A stretch of DNA of 64,000 nucleotides from Myxococcota bacterium (GCA_045643185.1 JAZUKH010000046.1:10883-74882), one strand, 5' to 3'. Shown: positions 8,054-50,397, numbered from the stretch's first letter. Numbers and translations are program-made. Notes: generated from the sequence alone by a model not told the origin.

Positions 8054-9472
8054 ATGACGATGCAGGAAAAGACGGAGATTCAAACTCAACAGGAGATTGC
8101 CAAACAGCACGAAGCGATATGCTCTTTGTTTGGGCTCAAAAAGACGTACGAGGAACGCGCAAACGCAGCTAGTACGCCAAAAACTGGCCTTTCGACGAAA
8201 CAGGTCGTCGTTTTGGTGTTGGCGGCTTTGTTGATCGTTGGGACGATCGTCGGCTACAGTGTGGCGCAGAAACTGATCGACCAGAAGGAACAGGACGAGG
8301 TCGTGGCCAAAAAGCAGCGTGAGATCGAAGCCGAAGAAGCGCGCCGTAACCGCACGGAATTTGCCGAGATCGCGTTTTTGGATTCGTTGCCCGAACAGGC
8401 TGCGATTTCGATGGATGGCAAAAAACTGTACGCCAAGACGCCGGATGGCAGCTACACCGCGTTGCGCGCTGGCAAGGACACTTGGATTCGTTATTTGCCG
8501 GTCAAAGAGAGCACGGTGATCCAGTTTGGCTTTGAGGCCGAAGGGTTTAGGCCGCTGTCACGCAAGATCGCTTACTATGACTGGTATCCTGCGCACAAAG
8601 GTGACATCACGCTTCAGAAGATCTTTCGCAAGATCGTGATGGAACCGGATGTGACGCCGCGTTTGTCGAATTGTGAGGGCGACGCGTGTGAATGGACGGT
8701 GTTTCGCGAGATCATGTTTCGTCTGAAGTATGCTGAGACGGCCAAGATCGCGGTCATCAACGAGGCTGATCGTGGTGTGAACCGCGAGCGCGTGTTGCGC
8801 ACCCATCCCGCGCTCGCGTCGGCGGTTGGCTTGGATGTGGCGAATTTGCCCAAGAATGATGCAGACATGCCGTTGGCTGCGCAAAACCTGATGCAGTTTG
8901 TCGACAAACATCCGTTTGATCTGTATGGGACGATCACGGTCAAATCGAATGTGGCTGACACGCGTGTTTCGTTTTTGGGTGAGCCGCTGATGGTGTTTAA
9001 GGCGTCCGGGTCGATGAGCCAGGTCAAGGTGGATCCCGAAGCGCCGTATACATTTTCGACGTATGGTCAGGGGCATCCGATCGTGATCACGGAGCCGTTG
9101 AGTTTGCGGCTTGAAGCGCCGGGTTATCCGAGCTACGTGACGGAGATCCTGCCGCATCAGTGGCGTTGTGAGCCAGTGTCGGCCGAAGTTCAGGCGGCTT
9201 TGACGGCGCCTGCGTTCACGCAGCTGGAAGATACGAAAGCGGATTATCACCATTATCTTTGCGATTACACCATAGAGATTGCCGTCGACTTTGAGTCGAT
9301 CAAAGCTGCTGCGGATCAGGATGCGGCAGCGGTTGCTGCCGCTCAGCTTGAGGCGTCCAAAGCAGCCGAGGCCAAAGCTGCGGCTACAAAGGCTGACGGG
9401 CAGTCGACGTCTGAAAAAGCGGAGGCTGCGCCACAAGCTGCTGCGAACGGGCAGAACAATGTTGCGAAGTAA
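8054..9472 (+). CDS. Hypothetical membrane-anchored protein with an Ala/Gln-rich C-terminus
   Basis: Internal TM anchor (VVVLVLAALLIVGTIVGY); ORF with plausible codon usage. Confidence 0.5.
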   Translation: MTMQEKTEIQTQQEIAKQHEAICSLFGLKKTYEERANAASTPKTGLSTKQVVVLVLAALLIVGTIVGYSVAQKLIDQKEQDEVVAKKQREIEAEEARRNRTEFAEIAFLDSLPEQAAISMDGKKLYAKTPDGSYTALRAGKDTWIRYLPVKESTVIQFGFEAEGFRPLSRKIAYYDWYPAHKGDITLQKIFRKIVMEPDVTPRLSNCEGDACEWTVFREIMFRLKYAETAKIAVINEADRGVNRERVLRTHPALASAVGLDVANLPKNDADMPLAAQNLMQFVDKHPFDLYGTITVKSNVADTRVSFLGEPLMVFKASGSMSQVKVDPEAPYTFSTYGQGHPIVITEPLSLRLEAPGYPSYVTEILPHQWRCEPVSAEVQAALTAPAFTQLEDTKADYHHYLCDYTIEIAVDFESIKAAADQDAAAVAAAQLEASKAAEAKAAATKADGQSTSEKAEAAPQAAANGQNNVAK

Positions 9473-11525
9473 GCTGTGGTTGACCTTGACGCTGCTTTTG
9501 GGCGTTGGCATGACGGCCTGCGAGCAAAAACAGCCGGTAGTGCTTGAACCGTTGCCGGTTTTGGCGATGCCCGAGGTCGAACTCACGCCTTTTTTGCCCA
9601 AAACAGCGTGGTCAGACCAGCTGATCGACTGGAAGATCGTGTCGTCGGCGCTTCGTGATGGCGTGACGATGCCAGACGCGCTTGAAACGCGGTTGACGCG
9701 CGATGATCGCGAGATCTGGAAGCGCGTGAGCGCGAATGTCGAGGCTTATGAAGCCAATCGTCGCGATGCGCTCGTTTTGGCAAGTGCCCAGGTGCCGCAG
9801 GCTGTCGAATGCGTGCCGCCGAGTTCGGCGTTCAGTTTGCAGCAACGCGCCATGTTAAGCCGCATGTTGCAGCAGCATCGCAATGTTTTGTGGCGGCTAG
9901 GGCGCCTCGAAATGGCGTCGCGCTATGTCAAAACATCGCTAAACCAGTTTTTGCCGCAATACGCCGGTGGGCGCATCAAAGACGCCGATACGGGCGTCGT
10001 GCAGCCCATTCGGTCGCTGTTTGAGCAGATCCAGGAGATTCGTTCACGCTACCAGACGCCCAACGGCGTGTGGTCTCCGGGAGAACTGCATTTTCGCATG
10101 GCGCGCCTTGCTCAGATCGCGCCGGCGATGCTTCAACTCAATGATTCGTTTGGCGTGTGGGCCGATCAGATCGCGGCGAGCACGCGGTGGCGCTATTTGG
10201 TCGGCAGCGCCGAGCCTGTGCGCGAAGCGCTTAAGATATGGTTGGACGAATACGAAAGCGTGTTGACGGCTTATCGGCATTTGGCCAGTGCTACGCAGGC
10301 GCTCGAACAGAGTTTTGGACCGCCGAATCAGCTCGTCGCATTTCCATGCATTAACCAGAATTTGCGCCGTATGCGCATTTTAGCGAACCTGTTTCAGGTG
10401 ATCCTGCCCATGCAATGGTCGCTCGCCCAGTCTGAAGTCAACGCCATGCACGTGCATCAACGCGTTTTGACGCCAGACTATCGCGAGGCAAAGCAGGAAT
10501 TCATGGCCAGCGAGGTTGTGGCGACGCATGAAAAAATGGTCGCGCTCAGTCGTAAGTTGGCGCACGCGGCTGACTTGTTGTTGATCATGTGGGATCAGTC
10601 AAATTACAGTGTTTGGAGCGGCTTGCCTGACTTTGTGGATCCCATTCATCACCATTCCGGCACTGCGGTCGAGGATGCTGAAACGTGGCGAGCGATGTAT
10701 TCGGTGTTGCAGGGTGACTTGGCGCGTTTGTCGACGAATTTGAAGCCTGAACCCGAACAGCCGCTCAACAAGTACGGCAAACCGTACGCGGCGCCAGTGC
10801 AAAAGATCGTTGAAGAGATCGAGTCGCCGACGCGCATTGACGAGGTCGAACACGGGCTGCTTTCGATTTCCGAGATCGAGTCTCACTTGGTCGCGATTCG
10901 CGACCAGTTGCTGCGCCTTTGCATGGACGGGGCGTGTCGCAGTTTTCCGGAAGCCGAGTTGGCCAATTCGCCGCGTAAGAGTCAATGGGTCGTGTCGTGG
11001 CGTCAAAGTCCTGTCTCGGAGCGAACGATCGGGCATTCGTTGATCGTGCTCAAACTGTGTCAGCTGCACCTGAGTCGTTTGGTGCAGCGTCTGGCCGAGA
11101 TCTATGGCTGGTTTGCCGAAACGTCGAATGCTGACATCACCTGGAAAACGTTAAAAGCCTGGCAGCGTATTTGGACGCTGTATGCCGAGCCCAATGGGAC
11201 GTATGCGAACTTTTTGAGGAGTGTGTCGACGCTTGACAAGCAGATCATGGAGATGGCGATTCCGCTCGAAAAGCGCGCGCAGTCGCCGGAACTGCTTGAA
11301 TTGCTCAAAATCCAGGATGAGTTGTTCGACCTGACGATCGACTATGCGCGCTTTATCGATGCGCGCGTGCACGCCCCCGTGCCGTTTGATGACATCACCG
11401 AAACGTGGTTATCGCTTCAAAGCGCGATCTCGACGATCGCGCGTTTGACGGCCGAACGCGACGAAAAAGCGGCGCCCGATGCGGTAAAAACCAAAAAACG
11501 CGTGCGTCAGGACGTTGATCGATAG
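9459..11525 (+). CDS. Hypothetical lipoprotein; start at the internal ATG (MLRSKLWLTLTLLLGVGMTAC), not the long upstream extension in the ORF track
   Basis: Lipobox signal peptide; 14-nt overlap with the stop of the upstream gene. Confidence 0.5.
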   Translation: MLRSKLWLTLTLLLGVGMTACEQKQPVVLEPLPVLAMPEVELTPFLPKTAWSDQLIDWKIVSSALRDGVTMPDALETRLTRDDREIWKRVSANVEAYEANRRDALVLASAQVPQAVECVPPSSAFSLQQRAMLSRMLQQHRNVLWRLGRLEMASRYVKTSLNQFLPQYAGGRIKDADTGVVQPIRSLFEQIQEIRSRYQTPNGVWSPGELHFRMARLAQIAPAMLQLNDSFGVWADQIAASTRWRYLVGSAEPVREALKIWLDEYESVLTAYRHLASATQALEQSFGPPNQLVAFPCINQNLRRMRILANLFQVILPMQWSLAQSEVNAMHVHQRVLTPDYREAKQEFMASEVVATHEKMVALSRKLAHAADLLLIMWDQSNYSVWSGLPDFVDPIHHHSGTAVEDAETWRAMYSVLQGDLARLSTNLKPEPEQPLNKYGKPYAAPVQKIVEEIESPTRIDEVEHGLLSISEIESHLVAIRDQLLRLCMDGACRSFPEAELANSPRKSQWVVSWRQSPVSERTIGHSLIVLKLCQLHLSRLVQRLAEIYGWFAETSNADITWKTLKAWQRIWTLYAEPNGTYANFLRSVSTLDKQIMEMAIPLEKRAQSPELLELLKIQDELFDLTIDYARFIDARVHAPVPFDDITETWLSLQSAISTIARLTAERDEKAAPDAVKTKKRVRQDVDR

Positions 11526-11721: not shown

Positions 11722-12180
11722 CTACTTGTTTTCTGAGTTGTCGTATATTTCATTATATAAATCTCTGGCTTTTTGTAAGAAGAATAGCATGTATGATTCG
11801 TTTGAATCAATACCATTATTCAGAGTGCTTATCATGTCATTTAAAACATAAAACCCCGTGTTTGCGTATTCTTCAGCATATTGGTACGCTAAAGAATCAT
11901 CATCCAAATTTTCAATTTCGTTATCATGGATAAGTTGATTGATAAGAATTGAGCGCAAAGTGGCTCTTTTGAAATAATCCAGAGTTTCTGAGCGGATAAA
12001 GTCCACGCGTTTTTTTAGTGGTTTTCGTTGACCATTTTCAATGCCAATAGCGACTGCAAATAGAAACAGATCACTTCGATCACAAGATGACTTACCCAGT
12101 TTCATGAAGTCTAAATCATCGATTTGTGGTATGATTTTAGATTGAACGTATGAATCAATATAAATTCTTGGTTCTTGCAT
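11722..12180 (-). CDS. Hypothetical protein, last gene of the AT-rich 6-gene operon
   Basis: AT-rich codon usage matching the island; start immediately follows the upstream stop (12180/12183). Confidence 0.5.
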   Translation of the reverse strand: MQEPRIYIDSYVQSKIIPQIDDLDFMKLGKSSCDRSDLFLFAVAIGIENGQRKPLKKRVDFIRSETLDYFKRATLRSILINQLIHDNEIENLDDDSLAYQYAEEYANTGFYVLNDMISTLNNGIDSNESYMLFFLQKARDLYNEIYDNSENK

Positions 12181-12182
12181 GA

Positions 12183-14168
12183 TTAAATCTCCTTAATGGC
12201 ATTGGTGTAGATTTCATCAATTGGTTTGAGAATGTGTTTGCTTGCTACAATCGTATTTGTGAATTGAGCTTGTATTTCTTTTGAAAATTCAGAGGGTGTT
12301 AGGGCAAGAATGATTTGCTTTGTTTTGCTGATTTCGACAAGTGATTTTGCAAAATTGGATCGATTTTCTGTATCGACACGACCAACAGGAGTATCAATAA
12401 ATAATAAAGAATCAAAACCAGATATTCTATGCATGGCAAGTGTAAAAGCTAAGGCTAATAATTGGCGTTCTGCGGATGAACCGACTAAATCTGTATTATT
12501 TAAATGTTTATTGTAAACGGCCATGTTATAGTCTTCATCGAGCGTAATGCGATCAAATGTATTCTTTTTCCACTCTAACTTTTCAAAAATCCGCATAGTT
12601 TCGGTTTCAATTTGTATTCGAAGGTCTGAGATGCATTTTGTTTTTAATTTTTCAAGAAGATCTAATGCATTGGTCGCAAATAGATAGTAATTATTAACAA
12701 TCTTATTGCTTTCTTGTTTCTGAGTGGCTTCAATTAGTTTTGTTTGATATTCCTTAATCTTTTCTTGGCATTTGTTCAGTTTAGGTGTTAATTGTCCAAT
12801 TTCTTCAGAATCCTTAGCAATTTGATTACGGTAAAAATTTCGTCGTTCAATACAATTTGTAATTTCATCAGGGTCAGGACATAGCTTAATTTTATTGATA
12901 AGTTCTTCCTTGGTTAACTCACATTCTCGTATTTTTTGTTCGATGTGAGCCTGTTCTTTTATAAGACTATTGATTTGATCATTCAAATCGCGTGGCCTTG
13001 AACACCATTTTTCAAGATCACTTTTGATTTCAACGAGTTTGTGTGATACTGATGATGAAAAATTAATCTGGTCAAGTAAATTTTGAATTTTCTGGATAGC
13101 TGTTTCGGATAAGTGACTACCACAGATTTTACATTGTTCATCTTTTAATGTATCATTTAGTACGCTGATATCAATACGAGGAGGAAGTTGTCCTTTGGTG
13201 CTGGCGTCGATGATGTAATGGTATACGGATTGATTTGTTTTATATAAGATAATTGAAATAAATAGATCTCGTGTTAATTTATAAAGTTTGGATTTGTTTG
13301 TATTTAAAGTTTTGTTGAAGTCATCGATCTGGGATTGGGTTAAGTCGAGCTGCTTTTGTTCGTCAGCGATGCATTCCATGCCAGAAATTTGTCTTGTGAG
13401 TCGTTCGAATTCTCTATTTGAAATAGCTCTATCCTGATTTAAGGTGTTTATTTTTCTTTCATATTCATCTTTTGATTGTTTACAATTGTTTAATTCTGTT
13501 TCGATTTCTTGACATTTTGGAATGTCTTTAGAGATTTGTTTGCAATATGAACTTATTACGCCTCGTAAATCGTTTTCTAGGTTTTCTAGATCAGTGATTT
13601 TTGACATCTTATAAATAGAACTTCTTACATTTTTTTGTTGTTGACTATCGAAATAGTCTGATAACTGCTCACCATCAAAAAAGAAGTATCCTCGAATAGC
13701 TTGGGGAAATTTTGAACGAATTATTTCTGTGGCTTCAGCATTCGTTTTAACATCTGATTGGTTTGTTAATAAATTAGTTTGTGTGACAATAAACTCATCT
13801 GCACCAGTCATTTCTGTTCTGACGCTGTATTTTAAAGATCGTTCTATTGTCAATTTTATGTTTTCTATTGTGCTGCGCGCTATTATCACAACTTTTACTG
13901 CGACAAACTCATCACCAATGCCTTTTGTTTCAAGAATCGATTTTGCATTGCAAATTGATTTTTTATCATTTCTATACGTTAATGACCCAATATGTGGCTC
14001 ATCATTATATAAACACCAATTGATGGCATTTAACAGGTTGGTTTTGCCAACGCCGTTACGACCGATAATGATGTGTAGGTCAGCATTGCCCTGATTGGGC
14101 TGATCAAATTGAAAGAAAGCATCCTGATATTGACGGTAGTTAATGATTTTGACGGAATCAATTCTCAT
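12183..14168 (-). CDS. SMC-like Rad50/SbcC-family ATPase with a central CxxC zinc hook
   Basis: N-terminal Walker A GRNGVGKTNLLNAINWCLY; long central coiled coil containing CKICGSHL; C-terminal LLFIDTPVGRVD (D-loop/Walker B region). Confidence 0.7.
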   Translation of the reverse strand: MRIDSVKIINYRQYQDAFFQFDQPNQGNADLHIIIGRNGVGKTNLLNAINWCLYNDEPHIGSLTYRNDKKSICNAKSILETKGIGDEFVAVKVVIIARSTIENIKLTIERSLKYSVRTEMTGADEFIVTQTNLLTNQSDVKTNAEATEIIRSKFPQAIRGYFFFDGEQLSDYFDSQQQKNVRSSIYKMSKITDLENLENDLRGVISSYCKQISKDIPKCQEIETELNNCKQSKDEYERKINTLNQDRAISNREFERLTRQISGMECIADEQKQLDLTQSQIDDFNKTLNTNKSKLYKLTRDLFISIILYKTNQSVYHYIIDASTKGQLPPRIDISVLNDTLKDEQCKICGSHLSETAIQKIQNLLDQINFSSSVSHKLVEIKSDLEKWCSRPRDLNDQINSLIKEQAHIEQKIRECELTKEELINKIKLCPDPDEITNCIERRNFYRNQIAKDSEEIGQLTPKLNKCQEKIKEYQTKLIEATQKQESNKIVNNYYLFATNALDLLEKLKTKCISDLRIQIETETMRIFEKLEWKKNTFDRITLDEDYNMAVYNKHLNNTDLVGSSAERQLLALAFTLAMHRISGFDSLLFIDTPVGRVDTENRSNFAKSLVEISKTKQIILALTPSEFSKEIQAQFTNTIVASKHILKPIDEIYTNAIKEI

Positions 14169-14365
14169 TTTGAAATCTCCTTAGATGTAACATTTCTATT
14201 GATTTCGTTATAAGTCTTTTCTATGATCTTTTGACAAGTCTTTTTATTGTGGATTCTATCATTGAATTGATAATTAATTAGCCTTTGTAATAACTCTTGA
14301 ATGCTTTTGTCGCCACGAGTAACTTCAAGAAGATTCTTTTCGATGAGTTCATTAAGATTTCCCAT
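14165..14365 (-). CDS. Small 66-aa protein, translationally coupled upstream of the SMC-like ATPase
   Basis: ATGA overlap with the downstream gene; lies inside the operon. Confidence 0.4.
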   Translation of the reverse strand: MGNLNELIEKNLLEVTRGDKSIQELLQRLINYQFNDRIHNKKTCQKIIEKTYNEINRNVTSKEISK

Positions 14366-14377
14366 AATATTCTCCTT

Positions 14378-16486
14378 TTATATTAAACCAGTTTTGGTTA
14401 TATCGGCAACCGCCTGGCTTCCGTTTATTGCTTCAGTAGCTATAGCAAAGATTCGTTTCATTTCTTTTTTGAAGATTCGCTTATCAAAATTTCTTTCTTC
14501 ATTTGACCAATCAGAATAATCAGGAGTGACAACAAAATCATCTATATAGGCAAGCTGTTTGTTGCCGTTATCACGTAGCACTCTACCTAAACGCTGAATA
14601 TACTCTCTTGCGTTCTCACTACTTGACAATAGAATTGCCCGTGAGGCTGTCTTGATGTCAATCCCTTCGTCCAGACATTTTATCGCAACAAGTATCTGAT
14701 AATAGCCGTTTCGAAATTTTTCAAGGATATCTTCTCTTTCAGATATACCCTTATCATCAATTTTTGTTGATTCGGACTGCGTAAATCGATGGCCAGATAT
14801 ATTAAGCTTAACAAGTAGTTCTTCAACTTTATCTATCTGTTTGTCTGAGACATAGATAATAGTATCACGAATGTCTGAAATTGAGGAGAGAAGAATTTTT
14901 AATGCAGAGATCTTGTGTTCAGCATTTTTAACGATATTTGCTCTTTTGAATAGCAGTTGTTCATATTTTTCATTATTTTCTATGTCATCATCTTTTGTGT
15001 GAATTAATTTGGATAATTTCTTAGTCAGCTTGTTATATTCGCTAGATTCGTTCTCAGTTAAATTGATAGGATATATATTGTATTTATAACTCACAAGAAA
15101 TGTACGATTTGTTACTGGGTTGATTGTTGTTAATGCATCATGTAATGAAAAAGTGAATTCATTGTTCATAAAATACGATTTAAGCAGATTTGTTCCTTCT
15201 TCATCGAACCATCTATCTGGAGTGGCGCTTAAACCGAGCCGATAATCGTATTTATCGAGCAATGACTTTTTGGTTTTGGAGGCTCCCATGCCATGGACTT
15301 CGTCCCCTATAAGCATGGTTTTATAACTATAGGATTTGATAATCTTTATAAAATCATCAGTGCACGCTGAACAGTGTGTTACATAGATAAGAATTTGTTT
15401 ATAAATTCCAAGATTAGCTTTTTGAAGAACACAGTTCAGATCTTTTTTCCAATTTGTGTGGTTACTATCGCAGACAATTGTTTGATCAAATCGAAGTTGG
15501 AGTGAATCGATTTCCTTTTTCCATTGAGATTGGAGTGTAATTTGTGGAATTGCTATGATTGTCAATAATTTTTGACAATTTTGTTGCGCATTTTCAAGAC
15601 ATTTTACTGCTGTGAAGGTCTTTCCTGTTCCAGTGGCCATTTCGAGCAACATAATTCTGTTACATTCGATCCAGTGTTCAATCGCTCTATTTTGATATGG
15701 AAAAGGCAACTTTTCAGATTGAGGCTTTGTAATAATTGATACACTTGTGTGATATCGGTTTTCGCGATATCGATCTAGAGATAGCTTATCATTTTGATAA
15801 TCTTCGCCTCGTTCTATTAGACGTTGTTTGACCGCAGTTGGTAAGTCTATGACTTCTAGCGAAGCGACGCTGTTATTCCACATTGAGTTAAAGTCGTTTT
15901 GGTGTCCTTGAAAGTATTCTCGTTGACCCGCATTCCAATTTTTATATACCTCGAAACGTTCATCATTCCATAACCAACCTGAGGCCGATTCATTGTTTGA
16001 ACCACTAAAAGAAATGCCATAATCGATTGATTTATTGTCGTACAGAATGCCAAACTTTTGATGCATAATGGGATTGTTGGCTGTATTCCTTACGTCTTTT
16101 ACGATAGCTATTTTTATTTGAAGTTTATTATTGGCCAACATCCAGCCAAGTGCTGCAATATGATCATTGAGAAAGTAATCAGGAATGTCTTCGATTGCAG
16201 TGATCATAGATTCTTCTAGAATCTTGTTTTGGTTTTCAATGACATTTTGAATGGTTTTAATATCATCATCACTTAGTTTTGGACATGTAATGAGTCTCAT
16301 GGTGCCACCATTTGCAATAAGCCCACCAATGCCTCGAGCTGCAATAGCTAAACTAGTTGATGAAAAATACCCCGATATTCTGTCATATTTCCTGGCTTCA
16401 CATAGTGCGGGAATATAGAAATCAGAGATCAAGTCGTCTTCTGAGCTTTTATATTGTATTTTTATGGGCAAATCCTTCAAGCTCAT
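14378..16486 (-). CDS. Fusion of an N-terminal PLD (HKD-motif) nuclease domain to a C-terminal SF2 DEAD/DEAH-box helicase
   Basis: IMHQKFGILYD...GSNN HKD-type motif (single copy); helicase motifs MATGTGKT (I), IGDEVH (II), LSATP (III), QRLGRVLR (VI). Confidence 0.75.
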   Translation of the reverse strand: MSLKDLPIKIQYKSSEDDLISDFYIPALCEARKYDRISGYFSSTSLAIAARGIGGLIANGGTMRLITCPKLSDDDIKTIQNVIENQNKILEESMITAIEDIPDYFLNDHIAALGWMLANNKLQIKIAIVKDVRNTANNPIMHQKFGILYDNKSIDYGISFSGSNNESASGWLWNDERFEVYKNWNAGQREYFQGHQNDFNSMWNNSVASLEVIDLPTAVKQRLIERGEDYQNDKLSLDRYRENRYHTSVSIITKPQSEKLPFPYQNRAIEHWIECNRIMLLEMATGTGKTFTAVKCLENAQQNCQKLLTIIAIPQITLQSQWKKEIDSLQLRFDQTIVCDSNHTNWKKDLNCVLQKANLGIYKQILIYVTHCSACTDDFIKIIKSYSYKTMLIGDEVHGMGASKTKKSLLDKYDYRLGLSATPDRWFDEEGTNLLKSYFMNNEFTFSLHDALTTINPVTNRTFLVSYKYNIYPINLTENESSEYNKLTKKLSKLIHTKDDDIENNEKYEQLLFKRANIVKNAEHKISALKILLSSISDIRDTIIYVSDKQIDKVEELLVKLNISGHRFTQSESTKIDDKGISEREDILEKFRNGYYQILVAIKCLDEGIDIKTASRAILLSSSENAREYIQRLGRVLRDNGNKQLAYIDDFVVTPDYSDWSNEERNFDKRIFKKEMKRIFAIATEAINGSQAVADITKTGLI

Positions 16487-17214
16487 ATATTAATTCTCCA
16501 GTCGATGCAATCCATTAGCTGAATAAGGTAGGATCCAGATAATGCGAATGTTAAGACCTGCTTCGTGTTAGCTTGGCGTCTTACTGCAGTTTTGTATGAA
16601 ATCGAAGATAAACAACTGCTATAGCTCCAAAATCCTTTGGTGTATATTGATTTTAAGATCGTTTGTATGAAAATATTAGAAAATAAAAGCTTTTTTATAA
16701 GCGATGAACGTATTGTTAACGGGTAGATGAGCATTTGATTGCTAAGTGCTGTTATCCTTACTTTGATTGGCTTTTCTTCGCTAATGGTTACCAATTTCAT
16801 CATGGCCGCAAGCTTAGCATGGTTTTCACCATATTTTAGTTGAGCTCCTGGTGTTTTGGATTGTATCAATTGGTAGCCTAAATCTTTAAATCCCATGCCT
16901 TGAGGCATGAATGACAAAATCTCACTTACTCTGAATATGCCATGTTCAAAATTGCTAAAACATGGTATGTCGTTTGCCAATAAAGTAACTTCTTTTATAT
17001 TATTGTCGTTAAAAATCTGATTGATAAAAGCCTCTTCAGAATACTCATTTAGTTTTTGTATGAAAATTTCTAATTCGTCTTTTGAAGCATTGTTGATAAT
17101 GTTATTTATTTCTGGTTCGTTGGTTAAGAATTTATGCAAAAAATCGTCATAAAATTGAGAATTGTAGGCCTGATCGAGATTGTTAGTATTCGCATCTGGA
17201 TATGTGTTATTCAT
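16483..17214 (-). CDS. Hypothetical protein (no recognisable motif), operon member
   Basis: ATGA overlap with the downstream gene; AT-rich island codon usage. Confidence 0.5.
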   Translation of the reverse strand: MNNTYPDANTNNLDQAYNSQFYDDFLHKFLTNEPEINNIINNASKDELEIFIQKLNEYSEEAFINQIFNDNNIKEVTLLANDIPCFSNFEHGIFRVSEILSFMPQGMGFKDLGYQLIQSKTPGAQLKYGENHAKLAAMMKLVTISEEKPIKVRITALSNQMLIYPLTIRSSLIKKLLFSNIFIQTILKSIYTKGFWSYSSCLSSISYKTAVRRQANTKQVLTFALSGSYLIQLMDCIDWRINI

Positions 17215-17216
17215 TA

Positions 17217-18395
17217 CTAAACCTCATTATATCTCATGTCGAAATACTGCTTCGCTATTTGTGGATAGTCTCGCTCAATCTCGAGCAGAGCTTTCATTGA
17301 AGAACAGTAAGTACCTTGTGTTTTGTGAAGAGCCTGATTAGCTTCACAGAACTGGCGAAAACTCATTTTTTTGAGCATGTTTGGTTGGTTGCACCAGCGT
17401 GCGATGCTGACATATAAACTTGAATATGGCGAGATTTTCCAGGGTGTTTCGTTTATATTCTGGTATCGCATGATATAGGGAAGACATTTATAGCGAAGAA
17501 GCAGTTCAATGCGTTTGAATGCATTGGCAATATCCGTGGCATCGGTGCTTTTGAAGCCTACTAGTACATAGAATTTTACACTCGTTGATTGAGTATATTT
17601 TCGAATTAATTTCAGTTTTTGCTCGATAAGCTTATAATCTTCTACGTTATCGAAGGCGAACGTGAAGTCACCATCGTAGTGTGCGTTAAACAGCATTTCA
17701 CATTTTTCTTCGGTGAGTATGCGTTCGTCCAGGCCTTGTTTGAATTTAAAGGGTTTATTGGTGTCGATGAGCTTTTGGAGTAGCGTTTTCCATTTGGGAT
17801 AACCGAGAAAATTGTCGTCTAAAAGGCAAATCTTTTTTAGGTTCTGGTCTAAAAACTCCTCCAAAGGACTATGTTCGAAAACATGGTCATATTTTTGATT
17901 CACGCAGAATGGACAGCGTCTGAAACAGCCTCTTGTCAAAAATCCAATCGAATAATTTGTGTATTCCTTGAATTGAGTCATGAATGATGACTTATTAAAG
18001 TTCTTCCCTTCTTTTAATTTGGTTAATTCGGCCTTCTGGACTTCGTCGGCTATCCATGCGTCATAAAGATGATAATCTGGACAACAGTGTTCGATTTCTG
18101 GGAGGAGGTTAGGTGCTTTGTCGAAATAAAATCCAGTTCCACCAATAGAAACATTTTTATGTTTCGTCAGGTTGATGGGAAAGAGTGGATCTGTTCCAAC
18201 AGGTGTGTCTGTAAATACTTTGGAAACAAAGACATGCTCATAGGCCTCAAGATTTTTGTAGTCAAGTTTGAGTTCGACTGCTTTGCCTTGGGCTTTGTAG
18301 TATGCCGAGAGTTTTTCGCTTGCGAGATTGGGAAAGCGATGTTTATCGCGGGCGATCAGATCTGCATCAATGATGGCAATGGTCATGATAGCCAT
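17217..18395 (-). CDS. Radical-SAM-like protein (CxxxCxxC), possibly with an N-terminal B12-binding-like domain; first gene of the operon
   Basis: GFLTRGCFRRCPFCVNQ contains C-x3-C-x2-C at about residue 155; RBS AGGATGG. Confidence 0.5.
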   Translation of the reverse strand: MAIMTIAIIDADLIARDKHRFPNLASEKLSAYYKAQGKAVELKLDYKNLEAYEHVFVSKVFTDTPVGTDPLFPINLTKHKNVSIGGTGFYFDKAPNLLPEIEHCCPDYHLYDAWIADEVQKAELTKLKEGKNFNKSSFMTQFKEYTNYSIGFLTRGCFRRCPFCVNQKYDHVFEHSPLEEFLDQNLKKICLLDDNFLGYPKWKTLLQKLIDTNKPFKFKQGLDERILTEEKCEMLFNAHYDGDFTFAFDNVEDYKLIEQKLKLIRKYTQSTSVKFYVLVGFKSTDATDIANAFKRIELLLRYKCLPYIMRYQNINETPWKISPYSSLYVSIARWCNQPNMLKKMSFRQFCEANQALHKTQGTYCSSMKALLEIERDYPQIAKQYFDMRYNEV

Positions 18396-18436
18396 CCTTG
18401 ATCCTGAAAAAGCTGGTTATTTATGAATAATCTTCG

Positions 18437-18449
18437 CCCCCCCCCCCCC
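18437..18449. repeat. Homopolymeric C13 tract in the leader/promoter region of the island operon
   Basis: CGCCCCCCCCCCCCCG read directly; lies between a TATAAT-like box (minus strand, ~18460-18465) and the start codon. Confidence 0.8.
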
Positions 18450-18814
18450 GGTCTGGCTAATTATATTCGGTTTTCTCATTAGTATGTTTCCAGTGTCTAA
18501 ATGTTCAGTTGATTTGGTTAGTTAAGTGCTTTCCTGTACGAAACAGTGTTTCTGTGTGCAATAGCTCAAGCTAGTTTAGTTGATCAGTTCTCGGTGATCA
18601 ATGATTTTTTTCTCTTTTCACAAATTATGTGCATATATGTAATAAATGTGATCGCGCATCTGCGAATAGTCTGTCAGCAGAAATGTACTGCTTAAGATAC
18701 GGAGTACAATTTTGGTGGGTATGCTATTCATTTGTTTGAAACAGATTCTGATACTTCACGTTTGGATATGAAAAAACTTGTCCCGAGAAGCCATGGACGA
18801 CGCTCGCGTCGTCT

Positions 18815-19405
18815 TTAGATTTCGTGTTTTTCGACGAGCGTGCGGATGATGCAGGCGGGCGTGTAGAATTCACCGGCGTTTTGGCCTTCCTGACTGGTGA
18901 ACTTAGAGAGGTAGTATTCATAGGTTCGCCCGAGCAAATCTTTGTCGTGCATCTGCGCGTTCATGTCGATATTGGTAAAGAGATTGATGACTTCGCCGAG
19001 TTTTCGTTTGTCAGAGTTCGGGGCGCGCAAAGTTCTTGGGCAGAATGCTGGCAAGTGAAGTGTTTTAGCCTTCGATGGAGGGCAAGGCCTGATCGATCGT
19101 CGTGCCGTTTGTCGCGTTGTGCGCATCGGTTGCAATGACTTTCTAGCGCGCATTTTCGGGCACAAAAAAACGTGCTCTGCTACGTATTCATCTCGATCTT
19201 CTTCAAACCCCTAACCCTCGCCTTCTTCGACGAGCTCCCGATATCGTGCTTCAAAGCGATCGCTGATGTGTTTTAGGAAGATGAGCCCGAGGATAACGGA
19301 TTTATATTCAGCTGCATCGATGTTGCCGCGAAGATTGTCCGCCGCTTTCCAGAGTTTGTCTTCAAATCCAAGTTCTGTTGTTGAGGTTTGGGTTTTCTTT
19401 GCCAT
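18815..19405 (-). pseudogene. hsdM: Decayed type I restriction-modification methylase (hsdM) remnant in two frames
   Basis: Fragment A (19211-19405) LGFEDKLWKAADNLRGNIDAAEYKSVILGLIFLKHISDRFE matches the HsdM_N domain; fragment B (18815-19165, other frame) LLGRTYEYYLSKFTSQEGQNAGEFYTP matches the start of the N6-MTase domain, then stops. Confidence 0.7.
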
Positions 19406-19672
19406 GGTTTTTGTTTTTGTAAATTGTAGGTTGTAGCCATCGAGCCCATCTTGCGTTCCGCTTCGACGGACCCGATTATTATTGTTATGGACAGTTTTAT
19501 AGAGACTCAATAGCAGCGCCTTCCAGGCGCCTTTTTCGGGGATTGTTTTACTCCGGAGGCGGTCGCTACGCGCCCACCCCCGGTTATGCAAGACATCGGC
19601 TTCCAGCCGAATATCTATGGCCATAACAATAATTGCTCATTGTAGTGTCGCCTTCGGTGTGCGCGAAGCGCA

Positions 19673-19714
19673 AATAATTGCTCATTGCTCATTGCTCATT
19701 GCTCATTGTAGTGT
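19673..19714. repeat. Heptamer tandem repeat (ATTGCTC)x4-5, with related copies at 19630-19648 and 20035-20058
   Basis: AATAATTGCTCATTGCTCATTGCTCATTGCTCATTGTAGTGT read directly. Confidence 0.8.
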
Positions 19715-19933
19715 TGTTCGGTAGCCCACGGCGAGTATCGCTGGAAGGCTGTAAAACTTGTATCGATACGTTTTCCCGTCATCGGCAGTTTGTGCAAAAA
19801 ATGCATAAACTGAATTTTCGTCGAGTTCGTGCTCGGAAAAGATGTTTTTAAGGTGCTTTGCGGCAACAGTTCGATCGATCCCAAACAACTGCCCAATCCC
19901 TTTTGGCGTGAGCCAAACCTGATGATCCTGCAC
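19703..19933 (-). pseudogene. N-terminal fragment of a RhuM-family (virulence/Fic-associated) protein
   Basis: GKTYRYKFYSLPAILAVGYR resembles the conserved RhuM N-terminal motif; only 76 aa remain where full-length proteins are ~300 aa. Confidence 0.5.
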
Positions 19934-20343: not shown

Positions 20344-20817
20344 TCATCTTATAAAGAACTTATAATAGTCGCTTTCCTGTGGATATTTCCATGGGTCTGT
20401 TCGATGATTGTAGTACAAATTGCATTCTCTCCCTATAGATATTTTTGTGTTGGTAACATTAGATGTGTTCCATTTGTTCAGAGGTCTGTTAAATGCTGCT
20501 GCACCACTAAACATCTTCTGCATGTTTGTAACATTGGAAACGTCCCAATTGTTAATATCTGAGTTCATTTTTAAAGCGTCACTGAACATTTCGGACATAT
20601 CCATGACGGCAGACAAATCAGGAACGTCCTTTGCTTTAATTACTGCATTTTTAGTTTGAGCCATAAAATAATGCATGCTTCTCCATACGTTTGTTCCCCA
20701 CTGGTCTACACTGAGAAGGGAACAATCATCGTCGTCGAATAGGCGCATCGAAGGTATGGTTCCAAGCAATACAAGCCGAACAAGTCGCGCAGTCTTGCAT
20801 GTCGAAGGCACGAACAA
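20344..20817 (-). pseudogene. Fragment of a surface protein with 26-residue repeats (BspA/Listeria-lipoprotein type)
   Basis: FSDALKMNSDINNWDVSNVTNMQKMFSGAAAFNRPLNKWNTSNVTN matches the F..A..FN..I..WDVSNVT.M..MF repeat; short, AT-rich. Confidence 0.5.
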
Positions 20818-20949: not shown

Positions 20950-21303
20950 TTACACTTCGTGTTTTTCGACGATATAATCTTCAATATTGCGTTTTTCGTG
21001 CGAGAAATTTACGCCCACCAGATACGTCGTTTTGTGTCCCAGGGTGAATGGAAGGACATAATCGTTATCTTTGATCTGATCGAGTGCAAGTTGGGCTGTT
21101 TTGTTGTATTTGAATTCAAAAATATATAAATAATTGCCAGTTTCCATGAGCAGATCGATGCGGCCATCAGCGATTTTATATTCTGCATGGACATAATATC
21201 CGGTCAGTGTTGCCAATAAATAGATAAAATTCTGGAAATGTAGTTCGCGATCGTAGCTGATATCGTATGGTGCACCAGCCAGAAGCACGGTGATGCGTTT
21301 CAT
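20950..21303 (-). CDS. PD-(D/E)XK nuclease-like C-terminal module, split from the upstream AAA-ATPase-like gene
   Basis: Aligns with the C-terminus of the intact paralog at 40484-42067 (IADGRIDLLMETGNYLYIFEFKYNK vs GYADIAFIPY...IVELKRN). Confidence 0.5.
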   Translation of the reverse strand: MKRITVLLAGAPYDISYDRELHFQNFIYLLATLTGYYVHAEYKIADGRIDLLMETGNYLYIFEFKYNKTAQLALDQIKDNDYVLPFTLGHKTTYLVGVNFSHEKRNIEDYIVEKHEV

Positions 21304-21325
21304 AAACGCGTCAATATTACCGGAT

Positions 21326-22480
21326 TCAAGTTCCTTGGAGTGTGCTTTTACAATAGAATGGTACCAGATAATCTATAAATCCTTCTTCAACTTCGCGATT
21401 GGGAAATTTTAATGTATATTCATCAAAATCCGGATCGTAATCTGATATGGTTAAATAACCAGTCTGATAAAGGATCGGAACGGGATCCTCGCTGTCGAAA
21501 TCGATATTTTCCAAATTACTTCCTTTGGTCGTAATTCCGTTAATTTCGTCGAATTGCCAGTGATTTTTATGAATCATTTTTGCCAGAATATCTGGTGTAC
21601 CTGTCGCAAACCAGAATTTGCCAAAGCGAAGACTGTTAAAGGCACTGAGCAGGCTGAATGGATTATACATGCCCGGTCCCTCGGCAGTGAAATGATAGCC
21701 ATCATAGAGTTCTTTTAGCTTCGATTTGGTCTTTTCAATCGAGATTTTCTGCTTTTGAGCGAGCGCTTCGATGTCATCTTCAAATTGCGTTAAAACTTCG
21801 TTTTCAGAAATGCCGCAAATTGCAGAAAACTGTTCATCCAGAGAAATGTCTTGCAGGTTGTTGAGTTCACTGAAAACACTGAGTTTTCCCATTTTGCTCA
21901 CACCGGTGATGAACACAAATCGGATATGTGCGTCTTCGCTTTTCAGGTTGCCGTACAGCCCTCGCAAGGTCGTTCTGTGTTTTTCACGAAGCTCGGGATA
22001 GTCCATGGATTCGACGATCGGTTTTTCGTATTCATCGATCAGGATGACGACTTTTTGGCCGGTCTTTTGGTGTATCGTTTGAATCAGGCGCTGAAAGCGG
22101 ACGTTGAGTTCCAAATCAGCAGGTTCAAGGCCATATTGTTTTTCCCATTCATGAAACTGATAATTCAGTTTGGATCTAAGTTCGCCCTCTTCCGCATAAT
22201 TCGCGCCGTTAAAATCGATCCGCAAAACTGGATATTTGATCCAGTCGTGTTCGATCTGTGCCATGGCGAGCTGGTTGAACAGTTCTTTTTTTCCCTCGAA
22301 ATAGGCTTGTAGCGTGGACAGAAGCAGGCTTTTTCCGAATCGACGCGGGCGTGCAAGGAAATAGTAGCCTTTGTCCTTTGCGATTTCGTAAACCAAGTCC
22401 GTTTTATCGACGTAATAGAAACCGTCTTCACGAATATTTTCAAATGTTTGAATGCCGATCGGGTATTTTTTCTTAGCCAT
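21326..22480 (-). CDS. Predicted AAA-ATPase-like (PF09820-type) protein, truncated or split before its nuclease module; start at MAKKKYPIGIQ
   Basis: YPIGIQTFENIREDGFYYVDKT...FLARPRRFGKSLLLSTL family signature; the upstream extension in the ORF track is read-through of a repeat element. Confidence 0.6.
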   Translation of the reverse strand: MAKKKYPIGIQTFENIREDGFYYVDKTDLVYEIAKDKGYYFLARPRRFGKSLLLSTLQAYFEGKKELFNQLAMAQIEHDWIKYPVLRIDFNGANYAEEGELRSKLNYQFHEWEKQYGLEPADLELNVRFQRLIQTIHQKTGQKVVILIDEYEKPIVESMDYPELREKHRTTLRGLYGNLKSEDAHIRFVFITGVSKMGKLSVFSELNNLQDISLDEQFSAICGISENEVLTQFEDDIEALAQKQKISIEKTKSKLKELYDGYHFTAEGPGMYNPFSLLSAFNSLRFGKFWFATGTPDILAKMIHKNHWQFDEINGITTKGSNLENIDFDSEDPVPILYQTGYLTISDYDPDFDEYTLKFPNREVEEGFIDYLVPFYCKSTLQGT

Positions 22481-22656
22481 AGTCAACCTCACAGGTGTGC
22501 ACGCGCTACCAATCCGTATTATAGCATACATTTTGTTGGTATTAGTACGTGGAGACGTGAGTCTCGAAGTTGAGACGTGCAGGTCATTTTGACCAAGCCA
22601 AGCCGCTAGGTTGAGGTGCACTACTGACTGGTGTGGGCAGCGTGCCATGGGGTTAT

Positions 22657-22752
22657 GGGCCCTGCCAGGTGAAGGGGTAGCGGCGTATTTTTTCCATGAT
22701 GCCACGCAGCATCATGGGAAAAATAGCCGCGTAGGGGAAGGCCTTCCCCTTC
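22657..22752. repeat. REP/MITE-like intergenic repeat, copy 3
   Basis: GCCAGGTGAAGGGGTAGCGGCGTAT-[palindrome TTTTTTCCATGATGC..GCATCATGGGAAAAA]-TAGCCGCGTAGGGGAAGGCCTTCCCCTTC. Confidence 0.85.
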
Positions 22753-46145: not shown

Positions 46146-46357
46146 GATGACCTCCAAAAGGGTTTAACTGTGGGTGAAATGCCGTAAAACTTTCAAATTT
46201 TCTCCAATTCAGAACGAATTAGTTACCAAAACACGATTCTACATTATACCGTTTATTCATTTTATATGGCAATTGATTTCGGCTGTTCTCGAGTTACAGT
46301 TCAGCCTCATTGCCAGCGCGATGTTATTATCTCAACCGGGGCATGAATCATAAAAGC

Positions 46358-46392
46358 GCCGCCGTATGCAATAGGCGGCGCGGCGAGCCGTA
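46358..46392. terminator. Terminator hairpin downstream of the 46436-48514 gene
   Basis: GCGCCGCC-GTATGCAATA-GGCGGCGC palindrome. Confidence 0.55.
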
Positions 46393-46435
46393 TTCGCGGA
46401 GCGAATAGGCGCGCCTAAAAATTAAAAAATATAAA

Positions 46436-48514: not shown

Positions 48515-48614
48515 CGTTATGATAACTTGTTATGAGAAATATAACATATCCTACGCATTTCAACGTTATTTGTAATGCTGAATCATCGTAAGATCTAGTC
48601 GATAAAATGCAAAC

Positions 48615-50318: not shown

Positions 50319-50397
50319 TATGCAGAATCTGAAATGTCGCGTGTTGTCATTCAGCACGACTGTTAATAATATATAAGGATGCTTTTTATATAATATG

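What the first reader, a model, noticed from the sequence alone, without database searches (positions are those of the whole stretch)
11722..18395. AT-rich, translationally coupled six-gene operon (radical-SAM-like / unknown / PLD-nuclease-SF2-helicase fusion / 66-aa / Rad50-SbcC-like ATPase / unknown): candidate undescribed defence or DNA-modification system
Six minus-strand genes are chained by ATGA overlaps or immediately adjacent stop and start codons (16486/16483, 14168/14165, 17217/17214, 12183/12180), so they are one transcription and translation unit. Their GC content is about 33% against ~55% in the flanks, which marks them as horizontally acquired. The gene content combines a nuclease-helicase effector, an SMC-like ATPase and a radical-SAM-like enzyme. 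This is the grammar of anti-phage defence loci, but I cannot match the combination to any described system. Lamassu has effector + small protein + SMC but no PLD-helicase or radical SAM. Mokosh type II fuses PLD to an SF1 helicase, whereas here the helicase is SF2 and ATPase and rSAM partners are present. Dnd and Ssp have an SMC-like DndD but a PAPS-reductase rather than rSAM. Dpd has helicase and PLD but a different rSAM. The adjacent type I hsdM remnants and RhuM fragment show this is a defence-island hotspot.
Basis: partly seen in the sequence, partly recalled or inferred. Interest (0 to 1): 0.9.

Follow-up and report, generated by a model that had tools for sequence, protein, structure and literature searches.

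The report
PbeABCD defence operon with radical-SAM partner
Four of the six genes are the already described PbeABCD anti-virus module, but here they are welded to an uncharacterised radical-SAM enzyme and a DNA-binding protein instead of the usual DNA-sulfur (Dnd) genes, which points to a possibly new way for bacteria and phages to mark DNA.

Summary
Six minus-strand ORFs at 11722-18395 are chained by ATGA overlaps or gaps of 2-12 nt. GC is 35% against about 55% in the flanks.

Genes 3-6 are the described PbeABCD module: PbeA E=6.5e-217, PbeC E=5e-79, and PbeB and PbeD are 66 and 152 aa, as in the archaeal prototype. PbeABCD is normally paired with DndCDEA phosphorothioation or with cytosine methylases.

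What I could not find described are genes 1 and 2.
- G2 is a winged-helix DNA-binding protein.

In other genomes G1(-G2) sits directly upstream of PbeABCD (26 of 81 loci), DndFGH, GmrSD-type nucleases or ParB/SNF2 modules, and these partners are interleaved on the G1 tree. One G1-G2 fusion exists. A sister clade of G1 lives in phages without G2, in some cases sandwiched between DNA methylases.

Best reading: G1 marks DNA and replaces the Dnd genes as the self-marking partner of PbeABCD. This is inferred from gene context, not shown, and the chemistry is unknown.

The parts
18396..18814 (-). AT-rich 5' leader and promoter region of the operon. Its upstream edge is the point where the truncated hsdM ends and GC drops.
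   Evidence: Sequence read. One sigma-70-like match lies on the minus strand at 18652-18624, but such matches are no more frequent than chance. No Rfam family matches, so there is no riboswitch.
18437..18449 (-). Homopolymer of 13 G (C13 on the + strand), about 40-55 nt upstream of the g1 start. Candidate slipped-strand (phase-variation) tract.
   Evidence: It is the only G/C run of 9 or more in the 64-kb window. Only 2 of 80 related loci have a G10 near the G1 start, so this is not a family feature.
17217..18395 (-). g1 (G1): radical SAM enzyme with an N-terminal Rossmann (B12-binding-like) domain. The probable true start is 18386 (389 aa).
16483..17214 (-). g2 (G2): 243-aa winged-helix DNA-binding protein, the partner of G1.
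14378..16486 (-). pbeA: PLD/HKD nuclease fused to an SF2 (ResIII/DEVH) helicase.
   Evidence: PADLOC PbeA PDLC02707 E=6.5e-217 over residues 2-692. TIGR04095 dnd_restrict_1 E=7e-108. Pfam finds PLDc_2, ResIII and Helicase_C. The motifs H142-x-K...D...SFSGSNNE and DEVH395 are conserved in the homologues aligned.
14165..14365 (-). pbeB: 66-aa small protein.
   Evidence: It sits between pbeA and pbeC, and at 66 aa it has the size of H. jeotgali PbeB (PMC6459918). It has no sequence hits. A small ORF of 56-65 aa occupies the same slot in related loci.
12183..14168 (-). [quoted passage not shown]
   Evidence: PADLOC PbeC E=5e-79 and DndD E=7e-43. TIGR03185 DndD reaches 124 bits, below its 245.85-bit cut-off. 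Walker A is GRNGVGKT at residue 36. C346-K-I-C349 lies at the coiled-coil apex and is conserved as C-x-x-C in all 20 homologues aligned.
11722..12180 (-). pbeD: 152-aa DndE-like protein.
   Evidence: TIGR04062 dnd_assoc_4 E=8e-7, 29 bits, below its cut-off. It has the same length as H. jeotgali PbeD, 152 aa. PMC10853773 equates PbeD with the DndE cognate.
18815..19624 (-). Broken type I hsdM (two fragments) that marks the upstream boundary of the acquired block.
   Evidence: HsdM_N E=3e-15 at 19211-19624. N6_Mtase profile positions 2-40 only at 18815-19165. The reading frame stops at about 18815, where GC falls.

Best explanation
The block is a horizontally acquired, single-operon, two-module defence system of the restriction-modification type.

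Module 2 (genes 3-6) is PbeABCD:
- PbeC is a DndD-like ABC ATPase with a Zn-hook-like CxxC.
- PbeD is DndE-like. Together with PbeC it would scan DNA.
- PbeA is an HKD nuclease fused to an SF2 translocase and is the effector.
- PbeB is a small regulator.

Module 1 (genes 1-2) takes the place that DndCDEA, or a cytosine methylase, holds in described Pbe systems.
- G1 is a radical SAM enzyme of the B12-binding-domain class. It would put a covalent mark on the host's DNA, most likely a radical C-H functionalisation such as C-methylation of a base or sugar.
- G2 is a winged-helix DNA-binding protein. It would either deliver G1 to DNA or read the mark for the effector.

PbeABCD would then act on invading DNA that lacks the mark, or would need marked self DNA to be licensed, as was shown for phosphorothioate in the archaeal prototype.

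Basis of each claim:
- Shown here: gene identities, folds, operon structure, and conserved, shuffled gene neighbourhoods.
- Inferred: that G1's substrate is DNA, what the chemistry is, the role of G2, and the anti-phage phenotype of this particular locus.
For: 1. Genes 3-6 are PbeABCD.
- The PADLOC PbeA and PbeC hits are full length, and NCBIfam finds dnd_restrict_1, DndD and dnd_assoc_4.
- The HKD, DEVH, Walker A and CxxC motifs are conserved.
- Gene order and the 66- and 152-aa sizes equal the prototype's.

2. G1 has a radical SAM fold plus a B12-binding-like domain.

3. G1-G2-PbeABCD is conserved as a tight operon in 26 of 81 loci, from Clostridia, Negativicutes, Verrucomicrobiota, Kiritimatiellia and others. 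No other gene family recurs in those loci, so no DndC or methylase cluster is present.

4. The same G1 clade sits directly upstream of other defence modules:
- DndF-DndG-DndH in a Fibrobacter MAG (L008; DndF E=1e-87, DndG E=6e-45, DndH E=0)
- GmrSD_N/DUF262 nucleases (7 loci)
- ParB-like plus SNF2 modules (10 loci)
- a PD-Lambda-5_A-like protein (L067)
These architectures are interleaved on the G1 tree. That is the pattern expected of a marking module with swappable restriction modules.

5. Fusions link the parts physically. L060 carries a G1-G2 fusion (G2 profile E=2e-49 at residues 388-619). L052 and L068 carry PLD-nuclease-G2-domain fusions next to G1.

6. A sister clade of G1 is encoded by phages without G2: 17 phage records and 51 IMG/VR contigs. 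In the complete Oscillospiraceae phage PV036431 it overlaps a ParB-N6/N4 methylase on one side and a C5 methylase on the other. Nineteen of the fetched genome loci show methylase neighbours.

7. Divergence is uneven, as for a conserved catalytic subunit with fast-evolving partners. Across the same loci G1 stays at 62-70% identity, while PbeA is about 40%, G2 about 30% and PbeC about 28%.

8. The parts of the window that were scanned contain no dnd or ssp genes.

9. Published work already proposes that solitary PbeABCD pairs with modifications other than phosphorothioate (PMC6459918) and that the CxC-DndE core recruits other nucleobase modifications (PMC10853773).
Against: - There is no direct evidence that G1 acts on DNA. 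Its best structural neighbours modify proteins (MgmA, RimO), antibiotics (AprD4, TsrM, CysS) or tRNA (MiaB).
- No known DNA-modifying radical SAM family matched by sequence.
- Most phage copies are stand-alone genes with no methylase within a few genes: 39 of 49 viral contigs were classed 'other'.
- DndFGH and Pbe modules are argued to work independently of modification genes in many genomes (PMC10853773), so some adjacency could be defence-island clustering.
- The DndFGH linkage was seen in one locus only.
- The most conserved residues of G2 lie in its predicted DNA-contact helices. That argues against G2 being a variable sequence-specificity subunit.
- Only part of the host genome is visible, so Dnd or Ssp genes could lie elsewhere.
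- The operon may be phase-off or inactive in this strain.
Confidence: 0.55

Rival explanations
1. G1 does not modify DNA. It modifies a protein of the system, for example the small PbeB or the effector, or it makes a modified nucleotide or small molecule, in the way viperin-like radical SAM defence enzymes do. G2 would be a transcription factor or a DNA anchor.
Against: G1 keeps its position with effector modules that share no small protein: GmrSD-type nucleases, DndFGH and ParB/SNF2. It is fused to a winged-helix DNA-binding protein in L060. In some phages it is translationally coupled to DNA methylases. It always occupies the slot that Dnd genes or methylases occupy in described Pbe systems.
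Confidence: 0.2
2. G1-G2 is a sensor or regulator. It would couple SAM, cobalamin or redox state, or a phage cue, to activation of the nuclease modules, and would not mark self DNA.
For: G2 is a winged-helix protein with conserved putative DNA-contact residues. Some phages are known to deplete SAM (general knowledge, not tested here).
Against: A 390-aa enzyme with seven invariant Cys and 62-70% identity across phyla looks like a catalyst. Phage-encoded copies without G2 or nucleases make no sense as regulators of a host nuclease. No riboswitch or regulatory RNA was found.
Confidence: 0.08
3. The six genes are two unrelated neighbours: a solitary and possibly inert PbeABCD, and an unrelated radical SAM pair brought together by defence-island clustering.
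For: 58% of PbeAC pairs are 'solitary', and the authors considered that they may be inactive (PMC6459918). The surrounding region is full of gene remnants.
Against: g2 and pbeA share an ATGA overlap. The same junction is overlapping or at most 17 nt apart in 22 related loci. The order is conserved in 26 loci across phyla. Fusions exist. All six ORFs are intact.
Confidence: 0.04

Closest known systems
DndCDEA-PbeABCD of Haloterrigena jeotgali (Xiong et al. 2019, PMC6459918). PMC10853773 equates it with the CxC-ABC-ATPase/DndE system.
   Same: The four-gene cassette is the same and in the same order. PbeA is an HKD nuclease plus SF2 helicase. PbeB is a 66-aa small protein. PbeC is a DndD-like ABC ATPase with a Cys hook. 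PbeD is a 152-aa DndE-like protein. All are co-transcribed, and PADLOC PbeA and PbeC match full length.
   Different: No dndCDEA, iscS or methylase lies next to it. Instead, a radical SAM enzyme and a winged-helix protein are translationally coupled upstream. Dependence on phosphorothioate is unknown here.
Pbe/CxC systems paired with cytosine C5/N4 methylases and an 'MTaX1' domain protein (PMC10853773, citing Krishnan et al. 2020)
   Same: Both are Pbe modules that use a non-phosphorothioate modification partner plus an extra small DNA-discrimination protein. G1 and G2 would be the analogues.
   Different: The enzyme here is a radical SAM protein, not a Rossmann-fold SAM methyltransferase. I could not test whether G2 is the MTaX1 domain, because the defining paper is not held and no profile for it exists in the libraries searched.
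SspABCD-SspE and DndABCDE-DndFGH (phosphorothioate marking plus a sensing nuclease)
   Same: The logic is the same: a marking module with interchangeable effector modules. G1 is found directly upstream of DndFGH (L008) and of DUF262/GmrSD-type nucleases.
   Different: No PAPS-reductase-like DndC or SspD, and no cysteine desulfurase. The DUF262 partners match PADLOC HEC-05/06, NsnA and PD-T4-2_A rather than SspE.
Class B (B12-binding-domain) radical SAM enzymes such as MgmA, TsrM, CysS and AprD4
   Different: Sequence identity is 11-15%. Pfam Radical_SAM scores below its cut-off. Cobalamin binding is untested. The genomic context is DNA defence and phage methylase clusters rather than biosynthesis.

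Membership tests
PbeABCD module (the CxC ABC-ATPase/DndE system) | PbeA: N-terminal PLD/HKD nuclease domain fused to an SF2 helicase | tested here: met
   PADLOC PbeA E=6.5e-217 over residues 2-692 of 702. Pfam finds PLDc_2, ResIII and Helicase_C. HxK...D...GSxN and DEVH are conserved.
PbeABCD module (the CxC ABC-ATPase/DndE system) | [quoted passage not shown] | tested here: met
   PADLOC PbeC E=5e-79, with DndD second at E=7e-43. Walker A is at residue 36, and SSAERQ...LLFIDTP lies at the C-terminus. C-x-x-C at 346-349 is conserved in 20 of 20 homologues. Whether the published 'CxC' means exactly this spacing could not be checked.
PbeABCD module (the CxC ABC-ATPase/DndE system) | PbeB: small, fast-evolving protein encoded between pbeA and pbeC | tested here: met
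   A 66-aa ORF sits in that slot. It overlaps pbeC by ATGA and has no detectable homologues in the libraries. The size matches the prototype. This is a test of position and size only.
PbeABCD module (the CxC ABC-ATPase/DndE system) | PbeD: DndE-like protein of about 150 aa encoded after pbeC | tested here: inconclusive
   TIGR04062 dnd_assoc_4 E=8e-7, but 29 bits against a 74-bit cut-off. The length is 152 aa, as in the prototype.
Complete DndCDEA-PbeABCD phosphorothioate defence system | dndC/D/E/A (or ssp) modification genes adjacent to the cassette | tested here: not met
   No Dnd or Ssp family hit among the flanking ORFs or the large ORFs tested across 4-53 kb of the window. No recurrent DndC-like cluster appears in 25 related loci. 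The rest of the genome is not visible.
Complete DndCDEA-PbeABCD phosphorothioate defence system | Antiviral activity that depends on phosphorothioate in host DNA | not testable with these tools
   This needs genetics and DNA chemistry.
Radical SAM superfamily (G1) | CX3CX2C motif that binds the [4Fe-4S] cluster, at the start of a partial TIM barrel | tested here: met
Radical SAM superfamily (G1) | Sequence match to Pfam PF04055 above its gathering score | tested here: not met
   16.3 bits against 29.5. Membership therefore rests on the fold and the motif. The family is unannotated in the large protein database.
Class B cobalamin-dependent radical SAM methylases (G1) | N-terminal Rossmann B12-binding domain that binds cobalamin | tested here: inconclusive
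   A domain of that fold is present, since full-length alignments to MgmA, TsrM and CysS cover 283-296 residues. But AprD4, which has the same fold, scores as high. Cofactor binding cannot be tested in silico here.
Methylthiotransferases (MiaB/RimO) (G1) | Three conserved Cys in the N-terminal domain for an auxiliary cluster, and a C-terminal TRAM domain | tested here: not met
   PADLOC gave no Lamassu or Mokosh hit. The only Dpd hits were weak matches (E of 1e-4 or worse) of the helicase domain to DpdE and DpdF.

The most novel reading that the evidence does not exclude
G1 founds a new class of DNA-marking enzymes. In this reading it is a radical SAM enzyme, possibly cobalamin-dependent, that installs a chemically new mark on DNA. 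The mark could be C-methylation or thiolation at an unactivated carbon, further alkylation of a methylated base, or even a Dnd-independent route to a backbone modification. Bacteria would use it as the self-marking partner of PbeABCD, DndFGH, GmrSD-type and ParB/SNF2 effectors. Phages would use it alone or together with methylases as anti-restriction. G2 would be a new winged-helix reader or targeting domain for that mark.
Probability: 0.4. Interest if true: 0.9.

Novelty: new variant of a known kind. Interest (0 to 1): 0.72.

Why it matters
More than half of PbeABCD cassettes are 'solitary', with no dnd genes nearby. What they use to tell self from non-self has been an open question since 2019 (PMC6459918). 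PMC10853773 disputes whether Pbe and DndFGH need a modification at all.

This locus, and the 26 related loci that share its six-gene order, give a concrete and testable candidate. It is a large, strongly conserved and unannotated radical SAM family that also sits next to DndFGH, GmrSD-type and ParB/SNF2 effector modules, and next to DNA methylases in some phages.

If G1 modifies DNA, it would add a radical-chemistry route to prokaryotic epigenetic marks. It would also add a new phage anti-restriction strategy that is common in gut and rumen anaerobes.

If G1 does not modify DNA, the locus is still a clear example of modular exchange around the Pbe core.

Tried and rejected
Searches that found nothing or could not be run:
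- Megablast of the block against E. coli genomes: no match.
- tRNA scan for an integration site: none in the window.
- Flanking direct or inverted repeats that would mark a mobile element: only short matches at chance level.
- Promoter and terminator scan: no more matches than in shuffled sequence.
- Rfam scan of the operon and its leader for a cobalamin or SAM riboswitch: nothing.
- Exact-sequence look-ups to find the source contig and organism: not on record. The host therefore remains unidentified.
- Sequence profile of G1 against PDB: no meaningful hit.
- afdb50 fold library: not available.
- Krishnan et al. 2020, which defines the CxC system and MTaX1: not held. So I could not test whether G2 equals MTaX1.
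- Literature searches for radical SAM together with Pbe, Dnd, GmrSD or DNA modification returned only unrelated systems, for example Ophion. Supplement searches found only generic genome annotations.

Readings I rejected:
- Lamassu, Mokosh or Dpd.
- A methylthiotransferase identity for G1, because there are no N-terminal Cys and no TRAM domain.
- Poly-G phase variation as a family feature, because it occurs in only 2 of 80 other loci.

Full report
**1. The observation**

The junctions were read directly:
- g1/g2: stop, 2 nt, start.
- g2/pbeA: ATGA overlap.
- pbeA/pbeB: 12 nt containing AAGGAG.
- pbeB/pbeC: ATGA overlap.
- pbeC/pbeD: stop, 2 nt, start.

Shine-Dalgarno-like AAGGAG precedes three of the starts. 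No minus-strand terminator-like site lies inside the block. GC is 0.351 for 11722-18395, against 0.552 and 0.527 in the flanks. Every gene lies between 0.29 and 0.40.

One small correction: g1 most likely starts at the second ATG (18386). This fits the homologue N-termini, an AAGGA 8 nt upstream, and the 389-aa database entry.

**2. Genes 3-6 are PbeABCD**

Profile searches:
- PADLOC matches the 702-aa protein end to end to PbeA (E=6.5e-217).
- PADLOC matches the 661-aa protein to PbeC (E=5e-79), with DndD as the next family.
- NCBIfam gives dnd_restrict_1, DndD and, for the 152-aa protein, dnd_assoc_4. All three score below the equivalog cut-offs, so these are relatives and not orthologues of the seed families.

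Motifs:
- PbeA keeps H-x-K...D...SFSGSxNE and DEVH.
- PbeC keeps Walker A and a C-x-x-C at the centre of its coiled coil, in all 20 homologues aligned.

Comparison with the literature:
- In the prototype from Haloterrigena jeotgali, PbeB and PbeD are 66 and 152 aa, the very lengths found here. All four genes are needed for protection, and activity depends on phosphorothioate made by DndCDEA (PMC6459918).
- PMC10853773 equates PbeA with an HKD-SF2 nuclease, PbeB with a fast-evolving small protein, PbeC with a 'CxC' ABC ATPase and PbeD with a DndE cognate. It notes that some such systems carry cytosine methylases and an 'MTaX1' protein instead of phosphorothioate genes.

So two-thirds of the 'undescribed' system is a described module.

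**3. Gene 1 (G1) is a real but divergent radical SAM enzyme**

- Pfam Radical_SAM scores below threshold, and NCBIfam and PADLOC are silent.
- The large protein database holds more than 6000 clusters of homologues. The listed ones are 65-72% identical, and none carries a Pfam domain or a name.
- In 23 of them, C157/C161/C164 (TRGCFRKCPFC) and four further Cys are invariant.
- The AlphaFold model is confident (pLDDT 85, pTM 0.82).
- Foldseek against viral models finds 'COG1032 Fe-S oxidoreductase' proteins.
- G1 is therefore an N-terminal Rossmann (B12-binding-like) domain plus a radical SAM core. It is not a methylthiotransferase, because it has no N-terminal Cys triad and no TRAM domain.
- Whether it binds cobalamin cannot be decided here.

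**4. Gene 2 (G2) is a winged-helix protein**

- It has no family hit in any library, even when 35 members are scanned one by one.
- An exhaustive profile search finds 649 representatives. Most are stand-alone proteins of 225-235 aa.
- The model is confident (pLDDT 89).
- The invariant motifs KYGENHxK and S-T-x-x-RR-x-N fall in predicted helices.

**5. Comparative genomics**

A scan of one genome per species returned 242 G1 relatives, of which the best 80 were fetched. I called ORFs, clustered them, and annotated representatives of the clusters.

Within the clade at 62-70% identity, G1 is followed by one of these:
- **(A) G2-PbeA-PbeB-PbeC-PbeD**, in 26 of 81 loci. These come from Clostridia, Negativicutes, Verrucomicrobiota, Kiritimatiellia, Anaeroplasmataceae and others.
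- **(B) ParB-like, 136-aa protein, SNF2 helicase, ParB-like, G2**, in 10 loci.
- **(C) G2 and a GmrSD_N/DUF262 (+HNH) nuclease**, in 7 loci.
- **(D) DndF, DndG and DndH**, in one Fibrobacter MAG (E=1e-87, 6e-45 and 0).
- **(E) A PD-Lambda-5_A-like protein and a 2181-aa protein**, in L067.
- **(F) A PLD nuclease fused to a G2-like domain**, on the opposite strand (L052, L068).

Further points:
- On a neighbour-joining tree of G1, architectures A, B and C are interleaved, so the modules have been exchanged repeatedly.
- In L060, G1 and G2 are one 636-aa protein.
- In the Pbe-type loci no other gene family recurs, so there is no DndC or methylase cluster. The junctions are overlapping or a few nucleotides long.
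- Across the same loci G1 keeps 62-70% identity, while PbeA keeps about 40%, G2 about 30% and PbeC about 28%.

**6. The phage clade**

- G1 relatives at 30-66% identity occur in 17 deposited phage genomes, where they are annotated 'radical SAM domain protein'. They also occur in 51 IMG/VR contigs.
- They lack G2 and nucleases, with one exception that looks like a host Pbe locus.
- In the complete Oscillospiraceae phage PV036431, the gene overlaps a ParB-N6/N4 methylase upstream and a C5 methylase downstream, ahead of the terminase.
- Nineteen of the fetched genome loci, which look like prophages, have the same kind of methylase neighbours.
- Many viral copies, however, stand alone among small genes.

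**7. Context in the window**

- The low-GC block begins where a type I hsdM is cut off after about 40 residues of its catalytic domain.
- It ends convergently with a 748-aa ORF of unknown function.
- Upstream lie more remnants: a weak RhuM fragment, a DUF285 fragment, and a split AAA-ATPase_like/PDDEXK_9 gene.
- No tRNA, flanking repeats or integrase were found.
- No Dnd or Ssp protein was detected among the ORFs tested across 4-53 kb.
- The only long G/C homopolymer in the whole window, G13, sits 40-55 nt upstream of g1.

**8. Mechanism proposed**

Shown here:
- A PbeABCD cassette with intact catalytic motifs.
- A radical SAM enzyme and a winged-helix protein translationally coupled to it.
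- A conserved neighbourhood in which effector modules are exchanged.

Inferred:
- G1 marks DNA. It occupies the slot held by DndCDEA or methylases in described Pbe systems. It partners with the effector types that accompany phosphorothioate systems: Pbe, DndFGH and DUF262 nucleases. In some phages its sister clade sits inside DNA-methylase clusters.
- G2 has one of two roles. It may target G1 to DNA, which the G1-G2 fusion supports. Or it may read the mark for the effector. Three things support that second reading: its absence from phage copies, its fusion to a PLD nuclease, and its conserved rather than variable helices. I cannot choose between the two.
- The chemistry is open. The fold class suggests radical C-methylation or a related C-H functionalisation. 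A phosphorothioate-like product is not excluded, but it has no chemical precedent for this fold.

**9. Rivals**

- G1 acts on a protein or a small molecule. This fits its structural neighbours, but it fits poorly with the variety of partner modules and with the winged-helix fusion.
- G1-G2 is a sensor or regulator. This is hard to square with phage-encoded copies that lack G2.
- The adjacency is chance. The ATGA coupling and the recurrence in 26 loci contradict this.

**10. Novelty**

- The Pbe part is already known.
- Within the literature and libraries available here, I found no description of the G1-G2 front end, or of G1 as a recurrent partner of Pbe, DndFGH, GmrSD and ParB/SNF2 modules.
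- Two caveats apply. The 2020 paper that first described the CxC systems could not be read. Newer DefenseFinder models could not be queried.
- I rate the finding as a new variant of a known kind. It would move upward only if G1's product proves to be a new DNA mark.

Noticed in passing
window 18437-18449 (minus strand): A run of 13 G lies 40-55 nt upstream of the g1 start. It is the only G/C homopolymer of 9 or more in the 64-kb window, and by my rough estimate about 0.002 would be expected by chance. It could be a slipped-strand phase-variation switch for the operon, or an assembly or insertion scar.
   Followed up: partly
window 18815-19624 (minus strand): A type I hsdM is broken into an HsdM_N fragment and a fragment holding only the first 40 or so positions of the N6_Mtase domain. 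It ends exactly where the low-GC block starts. The Pbe block appears to have replaced the rest of a type I R-M locus.
   Followed up: partly
window 20950-22705 (minus strand): An AAA-ATPase_like (PF09820) ORF at 21326-22705 and a separate PDDEXK_9 ORF at 20950-21303 look like one gene split by a frameshift. A DUF285/PARCEL-repeat fragment lies at 20344-20817, and a weak RhuM fragment at 19703-19933. Overall this is a decaying stretch of mobile or defence DNA with intermediate GC (0.41-0.49).
   Followed up: partly
window 42234-50357 (minus strand): Three consecutive large ORFs (1307, 692 and 580 aa) each carry the MXAN_6577-like cysteine-rich domain (NF041328). This paralogous array has no known function and may hint at the host lineage.
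   Followed up: no
L008 5095-14780 (Fibrobacter sp. MAG JAZLHK010000021.1): A G1 homologue lies 40 nt upstream of a complete DndF-DndG-DndH set, and no G2 was called in the stretch fetched. This is the only case seen, but it links the radical SAM family to the second classical phosphorothioate-associated restriction module.
   Followed up: partly
L052 10123-11283 and L068 11256-12368: These are proteins of 370-386 aa with an N-terminal PLD (DrmC-like) nuclease domain and a C-terminal G2-like domain. They are encoded next to G1 on the opposite strand, together with a conserved protein of about 180 aa (cluster c51).
   Followed up: partly
L039 6720-9986 (also L035, L036, L040, L047; Dialister and relatives): A protein of about 1088 aa with RNA-polymerase alpha-CTD and sigma-70 region 4 domains sits directly upstream of G1 in five Pbe-type loci. 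In other loci a small HTH gene precedes G1, for example an HTH_17 gene at L001 9798-9977. These could be controller proteins.
   Followed up: no
L082 13392-14168 (Oscillospiraceae phage PV036431): The same phage that carries the methylase / radical SAM / methylase trio also encodes a 'phosphoadenosine phosphosulfate reductase' (DndC-like fold family) between the terminase large subunit and the portal.
   Followed up: no
window 9279-11525 (+) and 22756-24651 (-): Two large ORFs (748 and 631 aa) flank the island region and have no Pfam or NCBIfam hit.
   Followed up: no
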